The notes under the pieces were generated by a model that was not told the DNA's origin, made no database searches, and worked only from the letters and a program-made list of their open reading frames with translations. The translations under genes and the position numbers were made by a program. Below are positions 20 through 9,235 of a stretch of 64,000 nucleotides of DNA, piece by piece. How positions within the stretch are numbered: position 1 is the stretch's first letter; the number at the start of each line of letters is the position of its first letter. This DNA is from Eledone cirrhosa (taxonomy: Eukaryota), in NCBI GenBank assembly GCA_964016885.1, contig OZ024742.1:334428001-334492000 (forward strand), written 5' to 3'.

Positions 20-275
20 TGTGCCACTGACCAAGTAGGCAGTGAATTTTTTCAGTGCCCTGGAATCTAGTCCCCGCTCGCTTTTTTCCATCCACTGAAT
101 TATTATTTTTATATGGGTTCCTAGTGTCCGAGAATTGCCTGGGAACTTAGCTGAGAATACACTCCCTGATGACTGACGTAAGGATTTCTCTATGGTTGCG
201 TTGCGTAACTATATTTATTCCCTTACAGAAACTAATTAGTTGGTGTGAAAATTTTAGTAAGTTAATTTTAAAATT
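20..275 (+). mobile_element. Small non-coding HHR-bearing element (PLE pLTR/retrozyme-like), family A copy 1
   Basis: Diverged inverted homolog of 8990-9235 (shared AGTCCCCGCT, GAATTATTATT, CTCCCTGATGA, GAAACTAATTAGTTGG). Confidence 0.75.
160..247 (+). ncRNA. Type I hammerhead ribozyme with extended stem II
   Basis: CACTCC-CTGATGA-[GTAAGG...CCTTAC]-GAAA-CTAATTAG-TT-GGTGTG; palindromic stem III ACTAATTAGT; one mismatch in stem I. Confidence 0.75.
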
Positions 276-2015
276 GTCTCATTTTACGTCTTTCATGTGT
301 GCGTGTGTATTGTGTGGGCGAGTTATTTAGCGCATGATCGTGTTGTTCGGTTATTAGATGTCTAGGTTTTTTTAGGTGACCCTGCCGTATGAATAGGCAG
401 CATAACTAGTGGTACAGACCCATGTACATATTACCACCACCCAAACAATGCATACACAGTTCACGCAAACAAAATAAAATACAACACACGCATATCTTTC
501 TTACATCAATTTAAAGAAGGCAGTCTGTTTGTCAGTGTCAATTGAGGTGTAGCTATAACTTCTTTCCCTATGCCTTATGATTTCATTTCTGACCGAAGTC
601 CATAACTATTTCATTATTTTGTGATTGATAAATAGCTATCAGCACAGTGGTGGTGTAGCCATCTCTCTTTGTTTGTTAGAGAGAGGGTCTCTATTGGGTC
701 GACCTTCACTCACGACTGACTGGCCGTATAAATCCCTATGAAGCGAATGATATTTACTCCTAACTAATAAATGATTGTCGTTAATGGAAGTAGCATTAAT
801 CAATCCTGCGTGCTATCTTTTAATTTACAAGGATATACATTCTTTGTTGATTATGGTGAGAACAATTGTAGTAAATGAATCATCACGTGAACATTAAATT
901 TCTGAAAAGATTTTAATGAATTATAAAAATTAATTATAAAAACTAAACCGGTTTTACAGAAATATGACAATTCTGATGACCACGATGATGAATAGTGTAC
1001 GCTCTACATATAGTTATTTCTAATACCTGACTAGCCCACATTATGTGCCTAAAGTAGAAACAATTATATTACTAGACGAAGAAATCCTGCCTTATAAGGA
1101 ATAGGTCATCGATACTAGATATTTTCTTCATAAATAAATCTTTGCTCTCAATATTTATAAATCATTATCTCTAAAACATTGACAATAATAAATGTGAACG
1201 GTCATTGAAACTAATGGCCAATTCTACGAAAAACGGCAAACAAATTACCATTTTCAATATGGTTATTAACTATGTGATATGTGAGGGAATGGAAGGAGTG
1301 GGTAACAGAAAAGTGGTAAAGGAGATGTTCCTGTTATACAAATTAGATGGTAGGCGAAAAAGGATCTAATTATTATAATTAATATTTAAAATAGTCTTTA
1401 AATCTATTTCCTTGAAACCAATTTATTCAGTGATTCTTTAGATGGGAGAATCTGTTGACTACGTTATAAAAATAGATATAAAAGATTTGTTGGTGATGGA
1501 AAAGGAAGTGAATCATAACATATATCGTTCAATATTTGGTTGCGGAAGTAATAAAACTAAAGTCGGGAAGAAAGCATCATACCCAGACCTACCAACCTCT
1601 CAAAACCAAAACGGAGAGTACTATGAAATAAAGTGTCCGAGAACGGGGAGAAATGAGGCAAAACGGATATTTTACATAATGAAAGCTATACCCAGTTCCA
1701 CAAGAGAAGAGATCTCTCACCCACCCCAAATTAGGTTGTAGATATCCCCGTCCAATGGGGAGAGTTGACAGGACTGCATACCTCAAGCTGGAAACCCGTG
1801 ATATGGATTGATATATTCAGCGAGTAAAGCTAGTTGCACTCCACGACAATGCTGTCGCGCATTTATTTGTTAGTGCGGTAAAGTGGAGGTATGCCGTCCA
1901 ACTAGGAAAGTATAGGGTTTATATCACCATCCTCCCTTTTTTCTTGTTTCATGATATTCTATACCTATTTTAGCAATTAAATACAATTATGTATTTAATT
2001 GTTCTTAGATTGTGG

Positions 2016-2255
2016 TGGAGTGTGGCCCAGTGGTAATGGTGCTGAAGTTATGATGATAATGTCACGGGTTCGATTCCTGGACTGGGTTGCTCCAGTATAC
2101 TCAGATGAAAATGAGTACTAGCAATAGCTGGGGGCTTAACCATGCGATGGCCTAGTGTCCTGTCCAAGTGGAAATCTTGTACTCTCAGTCCCTTCACGGC
2201 ATGGAGCCGAGATAAGCACCGGCCTAACGAGCATTATGACTTAAGGCAAACTTTA
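2016..2255 (+). mobile_element. tRNA-derived SINE
   Basis: A box TGGCCCAGTGG, B box GGTTCGATTCC, then a non-tRNA body. Confidence 0.7.
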
Positions 2256-2934
2256 GGTTATTCTGGCATTTTAAATGATTCTTTAATCGGAGTGGGTTAA
2301 TTTTCAAAATGAATTATCATTACTATACACTGATGTATTCGGACTAGTGTTTCATCACTGTTGTAATAGTCACAACCAAACAGATCCGAACCTTTTATTC
2401 GAATCATGGGAGAAGGTGGTTCGTATTTTGTTGGTCATACCGGGAATATCCTCTCATTCGGTATTCCGCTTGCTCAATTAGGTAGGTAGGATGACTTCCA
2501 CTTTCATTAACAAATATACACACATATAGATATACGCTGGTAGCTATCAAATGTGTTCGGGCTTTAAGCCTCCTTTTGATATTTTTAATGAAGTTCACAC
2601 AGTTGCCAGCATTTTGATTAAGTCTTCCTTTAATGGATAGGTATTATCATTCCAAAACAGTTTCCAAGCCACGGAAAACAGACATGATCACTGCCCGTCC
2701 ATCCTTAACTAAAATATATGCATGCATACAAAAGGTGAAACCTACAAATCCACAGATACAAAGGTATGGATGTAGACATAATTGAAAGTGCAAACCAAAG
2801 CATATATACTTATATGGTTACCAAGTTGACCTTTCACTAAATTGCAACTAAATACTTCTGAGTTGGAACACTGCTCTGTTTATATCGGTCGAAACTTCTA
2901 AAAATAAAGCACAGTTTGTATGAAAATATACACG

Positions 2935-3172
2935 TACATATATATATATATATATATATATATATATATATATATATATATATATATATATATATATATA
3001 TATATATATATATATATATATATATATATATATACATATATATATATGTATATATATATATATACATATATATATATATATATATATATATATATACATA
3101 TATGTATATATGTATATATATATACATATATATATATATACATACATATATATATATGTATATATATATATG
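2935..3172. repeat. (TA)n microsatellite
   Basis: Direct observation. Confidence 0.95.
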
Positions 3173-3779
3173 TCAGGTCACCAACTTGTGCTACTGGTAA
3201 CATGTATCCCAGTACAACCTGTCTCATGGTCGGGTCGTTGGCGACTAAACTGGCAACCCCACCAAGGTTTCTTGGTGATAGGGTGACTTTGGACATCCTG
3301 CAGGACTAAAAACAAAACCTGTCAAAGGGCAAAGGAGCTCTTAAGAGTCAATGGCCATCCAAAATCACCGGGAGAGATGACCCCTTAGCCTTTGTCAAGG
3401 CAGAATTCTAGGAGAAGGAAAACTCTGATATAACACCTGCAACCCTGATGGTATCCAATGATGTTGACTTGTTCTTCTTTTTGGTAAATATCATCTTGGT
3501 TAAGAGAGTGGAACTGGCTTTGTGCAGTGCCTTTGCTCACTATAAAAGCTTCACGGCACAGGCATTGCTTTATATCTGGAGATCTCTCTGCACTTGTCGT
3601 CACATGGTACCATGGGCCTAGCACTATGTGTCAATAATTGTCACAAGTGTAGTGTTTGTACCAGAGTTTTCAAGTCGCTGGCTGGACTAAAAAGTCACAC
3701 TCGTTTAGCGCATCAGTAGGGGTTCTCCTACATGGATATAAAGTAGTGGCCGTACTCGAAAACGAGTTGGCAGCCACCA
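3173..3779 (+). mobile_element. Internally deleted RTE-clade LINE (5' UTR-like part joined to 3' end)
   Basis: 3648-3719 translates to CSVCTRVFKSLAGLKSHTRLAHQ* (C2H2 motif typical of RTE ORF C-termini); TAGGAGAAGGAAAACTCTGA resembles RTE 5' UTRs; flanked by TA tracts. Confidence 0.6.
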
Positions 3780-7805: not shown

Positions 7806-8136
7806 GTTAACAAACGATGAAACAACACACACACACACACACACACATACACAAACGAGACAACTACACACCCACACGCACACACAGTAGCATTCCACCA
7901 TACGAACATACTACACAGCCAATACAGAGGAACAAGCAACAACACACACACACACACACTCAAGCGAGACAACAACACACGCACACACACACACACAGTA
8001 ACATTTAACAAACAGGCAGAGAATGGGCTGACAGCTAGCACCACCCCACTCCCACATTAGGCCGCTGACCTCTGCCCGACCAACCCCATTTCACGCACAC
8101 GCGCGCTCTGCTGAATGCCTCCACCCCGGAAAAAAA

Positions 8137-8174
8137 CCTCAGTTGATGGATGTGAATCCGAAATATATATAGGG
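8137..8174 (+). ncRNA. Degenerate minimal hammerhead in the PLE1 3' UTR
   Basis: CCT-CAGTTGA(T)-GGAT gtga ATCC-GAAA-TATATA-TA-GG; two core mismatches relative to CTGATGA. Confidence 0.5.
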
Positions 8175-8536
8175 ACAATTAAATCTCTCCCAAGGTAACT
8201 CTCTCTCGTGTTCTTATTTTTATTTTATCCTTTATACTCTTTCCTTCATTCTTCTACACGTCTTATACACACCACGCATCTCAACGTACACCCACTTACA
8301 TCTCTCTCTCCACCACCGGATCTTGTTACCCGGAGATTTACCCATTTGCATTGTCGAGGCTTCCAAACGACTTAAAGATATTTACCTATTATTCCACAAT
8401 GGTTCAAGCAAACTTCAATACTCTCTTATATATATATATATATATAGTAATAATAATATATTTGAAGACTAAAATCCAAAGAGGGCTCGATAACGATAAA
8501 TATATATCAAATATATAAGAAGCGTAGAGCAAATAT

Positions 8537-8675
8537 TTATTAAAATAACAGATTAAAGTTTAAGCAAAGAATAGATGCTTTCACCCTTGACGGGAACTTC
8601 TGAAAGTAACAGAAGTTCCCGTTAAGGGTGAAAGCAGCGATTCTTTGCTTAAACTTTAATCTGTTATTTTAATAA
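8537..8675. repeat. Fold-back (66-bp arms, 7-nt loop) with degenerate HHR
   Basis: TTATTAAAATAACAGATTAAAG...GAACTTCTG aaagtaa CAGAAGTTC...CTTTAATCTGTTATTTTAATAA; the right arm has CAGAAGT-TCCC gttaa GGGT-GAAA; a relative lies at 50550-50675. Confidence 0.85.
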
Positions 8676-8989
8676 TATATATATATATATATATATATAT
8701 ATATATATATATATATATATATATATATATATATATATTCATCTTTGAATATCCATTTATTATAATTTCTTAAATAACACGGCAAGGTAGTGATGGTTAT
8801 GGTTCCACAAACAAAATCCTTTTCATTACGAACCCGTTCACCAAACCACTCTGCTACACACACACAGATACACACACACACATAGACGCGCACACATATA
8901 TATCACACACACACACATATATATATATATATATATATATATATATATATAAAAGACTTAAAATAAGAAAATTTAAAAAAAATTTTTTT

Positions 8990-9235
8990 TTTTAAATTAA
9001 CTTACTTAAATTTTCACTCCAACTAATTAGTTTCTGCAATGGGATAAAGACAGTTACGTAATCTAACTGTCGAGAATTCATTGCGTCATCAGGGAGTCTA
9101 TTCTCACCTAAGTCTCCAGGCAATGCGCGGACACCGGGGACTCATATAAAAATAATAATAATTCGGTAGATGGAACAGCTAGCGGGGACTGAATTCCATG
9201 TACTGAAATCCTCGCTGCCTCTAGTCAAATGGCCG
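8990..9235 (-). mobile_element. HHR-bearing element, family A copy 2
   Basis: Reverse-complement homolog of 20-275. Confidence 0.75.
9016..9097 (-). ncRNA. Type I hammerhead ribozyme with extended stem II
   Basis: Minus strand: ACTCC-CTGATGA-C-GCAATG..GACAGTTA gattacg TAACTGTC..CATTGC-A-GAAA-CTAATTAG-TT-GGAGT. Confidence 0.85.

What the first reader, a model, noticed from the sequence alone, without database searches (positions are those of the whole stretch)
160..9097. Compensatory covariation in an extended-stem-II hammerhead family
Seen: two diverged copies (160-247+, 9016-9097-) keep the core and the ACTAATTAGT stem III. Stem II changes from GTAAGG/CCTTAC to GCAATG/CATTGC (two double substitutions), and the apical hairpin changes from TATGGTT/AACTATA to GACAGTT/AACTGTC. 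Inference: RNA structure was under selection, so this is a real ribozyme architecture with a two-tier stem II.
Basis: seen in the sequence. Interest (0 to 1): 0.7.

Follow-up and report, generated by a model that had tools for sequence, protein, structure and literature searches.

The report
Long-armed hammerhead in an animal retroelement
Two scattered copies of a short mobile element, probably from an octopus, carry a self-cutting RNA motif of a kind common in animal retrotransposons, but with one unusually long arm whose folded shape has been preserved by evolution; whether it still cuts, and what the long arm does, is untested.

Summary
Observation confirmed. Two copies (core at 166+, 9092-) of a ~280-nt element, about 80% identical, carry a type I hammerhead with a palindromic stem III and a 49-nt stem II: 6 bp, a 7x7 internal loop, then 8 bp. 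All 14 of 14 stem II pairs hold in both copies, with 4 double and 2 G-U/A-U changes; a neutral simulation gives P about 5e-5. An upstream hairpin also covaries. So the RNA structure was selected. 'Keep the core' is overstated: copy 1 has a 4-nt duplication at the core edge, and each copy has a stem I mismatch. Covariation does not show catalysis, or a catalytic role for the apical hairpin. The host is probably an octopus, and the window holds about eight other Penelope-type hammerhead families. Best reading: the solo 3' end of a Penelope-like element, or a retrozyme monomer, whose dimer-type, probably weak ribozyme has an enlarged stem II. Palindromic stem III, extra junction nucleotides and covariation are published features of this class. 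The two-tier arm lies outside the published descriptor, has no Rfam hit and was not found in my literature searches. Only two sequences were available. New variant of a known kind; interest 0.4.

The parts
21..299 (+). Element copy 1 (about 280 nt; may extend past the window start)
   Evidence: nhmmer with a two-copy profile, 21-299; blastn 50-273 vs 9208-8989, 79.7%
104..159 (+). Upstream irregular hairpin, just 5' of stem I; 1 double change and 3 G-U-type changes between copies, 1 pair broken
   Evidence: folds better on the ribozyme strand (z -2.9 vs -0.25)
160..247 (+). Type I hammerhead, copy 1: stem I 160-165/242-247 (one U-U mismatch), predicted cleavage after U241
166..177 (+). Core CUGAUGA, followed by a 4-nt duplication and the extra C (lesion specific to copy 1)
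   Evidence: alignment
178..226 (+). Two-tier stem II, copy 1: IIa 178-183/221-226, 7x7 pyrimidine-rich loop 184-190/214-220, IIb 191-198/206-213
227..241 (+). Extra A, GAAA, palindromic stem III (10 nt, 12 nt if A14 and U17 are counted), GUU cleavage triplet; identical in both copies
   Evidence: 0 of 15 positions differ
248..299 (+). AT-rich tail shared by both copies
8956..9232 (-). Element copy 2, flanked by AT/TG microsatellite on both sides
9015..9098 (-). Type I hammerhead, copy 2 (better preserved): 5-bp stem I, core 9092-9086, predicted cleavage after U9021
9036..9084 (-). Two-tier stem II, copy 2
9099..9154 (-). Upstream hairpin, copy 2
   Evidence: z -2.6 on this strand, -1.2 on the other

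Best explanation
The two copies are independent insertions, from two diverged subfamilies, of a short non-coding piece of a Penelope-like retroelement system: a 5'-truncated pseudo-LTR end, or a solo monomer of a non-LTR retrozyme derived from one. The RNA carries a type I hammerhead. SHOWN in sequence: core, three stems, palindromic stem III, and compensated two-tier stem II. INFERRED: as a monomer the RNA mostly misfolds, with the core paired to the 3' side of stem III. Two tandem copies in a source transcript pair through the 10-nt palindrome and swap stem I strands, giving a double hammerhead that cleaves after GUU, probably slowly and perhaps with help from the element's protein. INFERRED, less firm: stem IIa closes the core, and the 7x7 loop, held open between two compensated helices, is a contact surface, either docking on stem I or binding the element's RT/endonuclease protein; IIb is a scaffold that closes that loop. 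The compensatory changes arose in active master lineages before insertion. The unpaired lesions (stem I mismatches, duplication) are later decay, so copy 1 is probably dead and copy 2 possibly competent.
For: 14 of 14 stem II pairs kept, 4 double changes, P about 5e-5. Core plus stem III 0 of 23 changes. For copy 2 the active dimer scores -53.2 against -46.2 kcal/mol for two monomers, with intermolecular helix III probability 0.99 against about 0.1 for stem III in the monomer. A hammerhead scan with palindromic stem III gives 13 hits in the window against a mean of 0.375 in 40 shuffles. One further motif (21364-/25244+) lies in the repeats of a Penelope-like RT element whose best relative is an Octopus vulgaris protein, 69% identical. 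The published PLE descriptor allows an extra N10 and N11. Published PLE motifs show 10-nt palindromes, U at the cleavage site, covariation and mostly solo copies (PMC4209133). pLTRs and retrozymes are reported to be related (bioRxiv 10.64898/2026.07.22.740005).
Against: Only two sequences. No PLE coding sequence adjoins either copy: tblastn of 120 PLE-like proteins hit 6.8-7.8 kb, 21.9-24.9 kb and 48.0-48.6 kb, but not the element or its upstream part. No tandem arrangement; the copies are on opposite strands. No Rfam hammerhead match even at E<=10. The monomer active fold costs 6.1 (copy 1) and 2.5 (copy 2) kcal/mol, and copy 1 is not predicted to form the helix III dimer, P 0.0. In the copy 2 dimer U17 is predicted paired to A14 (P 0.87), which would oppose cleavage. 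An extra C after A9 was strongly detrimental in a viroid hammerhead (review PMC3705267). Higher conservation of the internal loop than of the stems is not significant (2 of 14 vs 10 of 28, P 0.28). Copy 2's stem II folds as well on the opposite strand (z -5.3 vs -5.4).
Confidence: 0.62

Rival explanations
1. The hammerhead scaffold is real, but the long stem II (and the upstream hairpin) were selected for mobilisation only: protein binding, RT recruitment or a compact circular-RNA fold. The apical tier is irrelevant to catalysis, and cleavage is marginal.
For: The upstream hairpin outside the ribozyme covaries too. Stem II tolerates insertions in engineered hammerheads (own knowledge). In the Anolis PLE, hammerhead cleavage was not needed for insertion in vitro (PMC11167929). 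PLE hammerheads cleave poorly in vitro (PMC4209133).
Against: Invariant core and palindrome (0 of 23) imply catalytic selection on the scaffold. This rival overlaps the protein-binding version of the best explanation and differs only in denying any effect on cleavage.
Confidence: 0.2
2. The element is a Pol III SINE with a tRNA-like head followed by a hammerhead, like schistosome Sm-alpha, rather than a PLE end or retrozyme.
For: Dispersed solo copies of about 280 nt. The homology begins at about the same point in both copies. An A-box-like stretch has 1 mismatch in copy 1.
Against: The best A box in copy 2 has 2 mismatches, the best B boxes have 2 mismatches in both copies, and the spacing is short (box consensus recalled). 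No tRNA match in Rfam at E<=10 or by ARAGORN. No target-site duplication seen by eye.
Confidence: 0.1
3. The double changes come from templated copying within a DNA or cDNA hairpin (quasi-palindrome correction or RT template switching), not from selection on RNA structure.
For: Paired positions change faster than background (10 of 28 vs 17%), and 2 of the 4 doubles are transversion pairs with no G-U intermediate. Copy 2's stem II folds on either strand.
Against: Templated copying should also close the internal loop, yet only 1 of 7 opposed positions is complementary in both copies. One-sided transitions give G-U more often than A-C on the ribozyme strand (5 vs 2, not significant), and the upstream hairpin is strand-specific. 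It does not explain the invariant core.
Confidence: 0.06
4. Chance, or protein-coding constraint.
For: One reading frame across stem II is stop-free for 29 codons in both copies, and in the Anolis PLE the ORF starts in stem II.
Against: That frame has 10 non-synonymous against 4 synonymous codon differences, and its ATG is present in copy 2 only. The neutral null is rejected.
Confidence: 0.02

Closest known systems
Hammerheads of Penelope-like elements (Cervera and De la Pena 2014, PMC4209133)
   Same: Type I; short helix I; palindromic helix III (10-nt palindromes listed for Aedes and Saccoglossus); extra nucleotide after A9; optional extra N11 in the descriptor, and one AGAAA among 56 core entries; frequent U17; solo dispersed copies; families rich in covariation.
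   Different: Their descriptor caps stem II at 7 bp and loop 2 at 10 nt; here 37 nt lie between the IIa strands. None of the 56 listed motifs shows a second hairpin tier as read from the extracted text. No adjoining PLE ORF was found here.
Metazoan non-LTR retrozymes (Cervera and De la Pena 2020, PMC7229834; Li et al. preprint 10.64898/2026.07.22.740005)
   Same: Size within 170-400 nt, low GC (0.38 for 109-322), type I hammerhead, self-paired RNA, solo monomers common, present in molluscs.
   Different: No tandem array here; canonical metazoan motifs have a 4-bp helix II; circular RNA not shown.
Schistosoma Sm-alpha SINE-like hammerhead repeats
   Same: Short dispersed repeat ending in a type I hammerhead (review PMC6765202).
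   Different: No convincing promoter boxes; stem II far longer; no Rfam hammerhead match.
Hammerheads with long helix II: chrysovirus type I (6 bp, bulged A; PMC13725137) and CChMVd minus strand (PMC3705267)
   Same: Helix II longer than the usual 4-5 bp.
   Different: These are virus or viroid motifs; chrysovirus helices are 6-8 bp with a small loop and a longer helix III, not 6 bp + 7x7 loop + 8 bp with a dimer-type palindrome.
Engineered aptazymes with an aptamer grafted on stem II
   Same: Same topology: core, short helix, internal loop, closing hairpin (own knowledge; only search listings seen).
   Different: No ligand or switching is shown here; the resemblance is a lead only.

Membership tests
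Type I hammerhead ribozyme | Core CUGANGA and GAAA in order | tested here: met
   Both copies; copy 1 carries a 4-nt duplication after the core
Type I hammerhead ribozyme | A15.1-U16.1 and an NUH cleavage triplet | tested here: met
   GUU in both copies
Type I hammerhead ribozyme | Stems I, II, III, open at stem I | tested here: met
   5 of 6 stem I pairs per copy, 6+8 in stem II, 3 in stem III
Type I hammerhead ribozyme | Pair 10.1-11.1 stacked directly on the core | tested here: inconclusive
   C-A mismatch, or G-C with an extra C and extra A; allowed by the PLE descriptor, U-U precedent, effect unknown
Type I hammerhead ribozyme | Stem I-stem II tertiary contact | tested here: inconclusive
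   A 5-bp complement between the 5' flank and the loop occurs by chance in 18% of shuffles and does not covary
Type I hammerhead ribozyme | Self-cleavage 3' of H17 | not testable with these tools
   Needs an assay
Rfam hammerhead families | Match to a covariance model | tested here: not met
   0 hammerhead matches at gathering score in the whole window (no other window motif matched either) or at E<=10 around either copy
PLE-associated hammerheads | Short palindromic helix III, dimer-type | tested here: met
   Invariant 10-nt palindrome; dimer favoured for copy 2, not for copy 1
PLE-associated hammerheads | Helix II 3-7 bp with loop 3-10 nt (published descriptor) | tested here: not met
   Helix 6 bp but 37 nt enclosed
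PLE-associated hammerheads | Located in a pLTR joined to an RT/GIY-YIG ORF | tested here: inconclusive
   No coding match next to either copy with 120 PLE-like proteins; copy 1 starts 20 nt from the window edge; most published motifs are also solo
PLE-associated hammerheads | Short tail, then AT-rich or (TA)n target | tested here: inconclusive
   Copy 2 reaches (TA)n about 70 nt after the cut site; copy 1 has none within 700 nt; 37% of random positions have one nearby
Non-LTR retrozymes | 170-400 nt non-coding unit with type I hammerhead | tested here: met
   About 280 nt; no coding constraint
Non-LTR retrozymes | Head-to-tail tandem copies | tested here: not met
   Two solo copies on opposite strands, no third copy in the window
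Non-LTR retrozymes | Circular RNA in tissues | not testable with these tools
   No transcript data
Sm-alpha-type Pol III SINE | A and B boxes upstream of the ribozyme | tested here: not met
   Best B box 2 mismatches in both copies; A box 1 and 2 mismatches

The most novel reading that the evidence does not exclude
A natural gated hammerhead with the architecture of an engineered aptazyme: the weak C/A junction couples the core to a conserved 7x7 loop that binds the retroelement's own protein, or docks on stem I, and so switches cleavage on or off during mobilisation. Such long-armed motifs would form a widespread class that Rfam and the published descriptors cannot see; a second, unrelated long-stem-II family sits in the same 64 kb.
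Probability: 0.12. Interest if true: 0.8.

Novelty: new variant of a known kind. Interest (0 to 1): 0.4.

Why it matters
The role of hammerheads in Penelope-like elements is unresolved: they cleave weakly, lack the usual tertiary contacts and in one case need the element's protein. A family with a separable, selected extra module gives a clean handle: delete or close the loop and measure cleavage and protein binding. The motif also shows a blind spot, since it escapes Rfam and the published descriptor, so counts of animal ribozymes are probably low. If the arm is only a structural appendage, this is one more variant among many species-specific families.

Tried and rejected
Homolog hunting failed. 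One pattern scan of bacterial and archaeal genomes gave 30 matches; 0 of 30 had similarity beyond the motif, and none had more than 4 of 6 stem I pairs, so they are chance. blastn of copy 2 found nothing in phages or plasmids. nhmmer found no third copy in the window. No eukaryotic genome collection is offered, and viral and metagenome contigs were closed and stayed unchecked, so R-scape-type statistics were not possible. A pseudoknot between the 5' flank and the internal loop was rejected as unsupported (P 0.18, no covariation, and it competes with the upstream hairpin). Coding constraint was rejected. A tRNA-derived head was not supported. The idea that the two copies are inverted termini of one 9-kb insertion was rejected by inference: termini should be near-identical at insertion, and neutral decay does not give compensatory changes. 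Microsatellite adjacency is weak evidence because of the 37% background. In one search the per-region tally for stem I and core, and the stem I row, used a register off by one or more columns; I use for those. Luense et al. 2017 (PMC5785218), which catalogues PLE hammerhead variants, is not held and may already contain long stem II forms. Supplements of the two bioRxiv preprints could not be seen.
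Full report
OBSERVATION. They belong to a longer repeat: blastn aligns 50-273 with 9208-8989 at 79.7%, and a two-copy profile covers 21-299 and 9232-8956 with no third copy in the window. Each reads, 5' to 3': stem I strand, CUGAUGA, an extra C, stem IIa (6 bp), a 7x7 internal loop, stem IIb (8 bp), an apical loop, back down, an extra A, GAAA, a palindromic stem III, GUU, and the stem I partner. Each copy folds this stem II on its own (z -4.2 and -4.85, 0 of 200 shuffles each). Between copies 14 of 14 pairs are kept: 8 unchanged, 2 G-U/A-U, 4 changed on both sides. Two further apical pairs seen only in copy 1 are lost in copy 2.

CHANCE. With 33 substitutions in 194 aligned columns, neutral simulation gives P(>=4 compensatory doubles) of 4e-5 to 5e-5; at a rate of 0.40 it is 0.017-0.019; conditioning on 10 changes in 28 stem columns, P(no broken pair) is 2e-4 to 3e-4. 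Sliding the partners by 1-3 columns gives no double change and 33-45% pairing against 94.8%. The built-in shuffle control was reached by 41 of 500 shuffles, but it has almost no power on two rows. The structure was picked after looking, and two sequences are not a phylogenetic test. Changes concentrate in paired positions (10 of 28) and avoid the core and stem III (0 of 23; P 0.001). The internal loop differs at 2 of 14, not significantly fewer than the stems (P 0.28).

Copy 1 has a 4-nt duplication between A9 and stem II, and each copy has a different stem I mismatch; I read these as decay after insertion (inference). An irregular hairpin just upstream (104-159; 9154-9099) also shows 1 double change, 3 G-U-type changes and 1 broken pair, and prefers the ribozyme strand (z -2.9 and -2.6 against -0.25 and -1.2). 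Structure selection therefore extends beyond the ribozyme. Against strand specificity, copy 2's stem II folds equally well on the other strand. One-sided transitions give 5 G-U and 2 A-C, the expected direction but not significant.

SETTING. The window is AT-rich, microsatellite-rich animal DNA. A 776-aa ORF at 22091-24421 has RT similarity, and its best relative is an Octopus vulgaris protein at 69%, so the host is probably an octopus (inference from one protein). GIY-YIG and RT remnants lie at 6.8-7.8 kb. A scan for hammerheads with palindromic stem III gives 13 hits against a mean of 0.375 in 40 shuffles (the hit at 16182 looks like chance). With motifs, I count about eight other families. 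Only one (21364-/25244+) is tied directly to a PLE ORF. Their stem II regions span 12-25 nt, except one family with 36-39 nt (20843+/20759-), against 51 nt here. No window motif matches Rfam at the gathering score, and the two copies match no hammerhead model at E<=10. tblastn with 120 PLE-like proteins finds no coding sequence at either copy.

MECHANISM. In the predicted monomer the core pairs with the 3' side of stem III; the active fold costs 2.5 (copy 2) or 6.1 (copy 1) kcal/mol, and stem III pairs have probability about 0.1 in copy 2. Two copy 2 molecules pair through the palindrome: -53.2 against -46.2 kcal/mol, helix III probability 0.99. The model also pairs A14 with U17 (0.87), which would oppose cleavage, and copy 1 is not predicted to form this dimer. 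I infer a dimer-type, slow ribozyme acting in tandem source transcripts, as proposed for PLE and newt motifs. The 7x7 loop stays open in both copies (1 of 7 opposed positions complementary) between helices whose letters change freely. That fits a contact surface for stem I or a protein, and argues against templated hairpin correction. A pseudoknot to the 5' flank is possible but no better than chance (P 0.18). Coding constraint is not supported (10 non-synonymous against 4 synonymous codon differences in the one open frame).

COMPARISON. PMC4209133 (read: main text parts 1-2 of 4 and the extracted text of the whole supplementary PDF, figures not visible) describes PLE hammerheads with palindromic helix III, helix II up to 7-8 bp, an extra nucleotide after A9, mostly solo copies, abundant covariation and low activity; its descriptor allows extra N10 and N11 but caps loop 2 at 10 nt, so this motif would be missed. 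PMC11167929 (parts 1-2 of 4) found a PLE hammerhead that cleaves only with protein and is dispensable for insertion in vitro. PMC7229834 (passages and section 14) and preprint 10.64898/2026.07.22.740005 (parts 1-2 of 5) describe retrozymes, solo monomers and their PLE link. Passages only: PMC3088659 (stem II can begin with U-U, pseudoknots common), 10.1101/2021.04.23.441226 (tails, microsatellite bias), PMC6765202, PMC13725137, PMC3705267 (extra C after A9 detrimental in CChMVd), PMC10085705, PMC6155905, and PMC13282606 (O. vulgaris repeat annotation, 30 recently active Penelope families, 'ribozyme' 0 times in the main text). Searches for hammerhead with octopus, with cephalopod, and with long or extended stem II listed no description of this architecture. 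The library lacks most subscription papers, and Luense et al. 2017 was not available, so absence from print is not established. Nucleotide numbering and the aptazyme resemblance are from my own knowledge.

VERDICT. It works like a dimer-type PLE or retrozyme hammerhead. It meets the sequence features of a type I hammerhead, fails the Rfam and published-descriptor size tests, and cannot yet be filed under PLE pLTR or retrozyme because neither an ORF junction nor a tandem array was seen. No homologs were found outside the window. Covariation is real but expected for this class; the two-tier stem II is the new part. New variant of a known kind, interest 0.4. The bold reading, a naturally gated hammerhead, has probability about 0.12.

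Noticed in passing
window 21031-25584: Penelope-like element on the minus strand: 776-aa RT ORF (22091-24421), endonuclease-like remnant below it, 993-bp inverted repeats at 95% identity, and a small hammerhead at 21364- and 25244+. A further 3' fragment lies at about 48080-48700.
   Followed up: partly
window 20640-20960: Inverted pair of hammerheads (20759-, 20843+) of an unrelated family, also with a long stem II (36-39 nt), an 8-nt palindrome, and in 20759 a tail of about 35 nt ending in (TA)n.
   Followed up: partly
window 6790-8200: Internally deleted PLE on the plus strand: RT start, GIY-YIG ORF 7239-7805, and a decayed hammerhead-like motif near 8140-8175 seen by eye.
   Followed up: no
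window 49474 and 52026 (+): Two hammerhead-like motifs with the U3-A8 core variant and a 6-nt palindromic stem III.
   Followed up: no
window 18297, 34350/34710, 35895/36870/37593, 50872/50949, 52888: Further small hammerhead families with palindromic stem III, several as inverted pairs; none reaches an Rfam gathering score.
   Followed up: partly
window 55700-64000: Cluster of tRNA-Met(CAT) genes in both orientations within diverged repeats: 3 intact by ARAGORN plus many decayed copies.
   Followed up: no
window 9500-12000 (-): Fragmented non-LTR retrotransposon with an RT match (11249-11920), ending just upstream of copy 2.
   Followed up: no
window 4653-4850, 5383-5543, 32935-33339, 45337-45540, 54023-54236, 56227-56812: A dispersed ~190-bp repeat family, 75-91% identical, SINE-like in size.
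   Followed up: no
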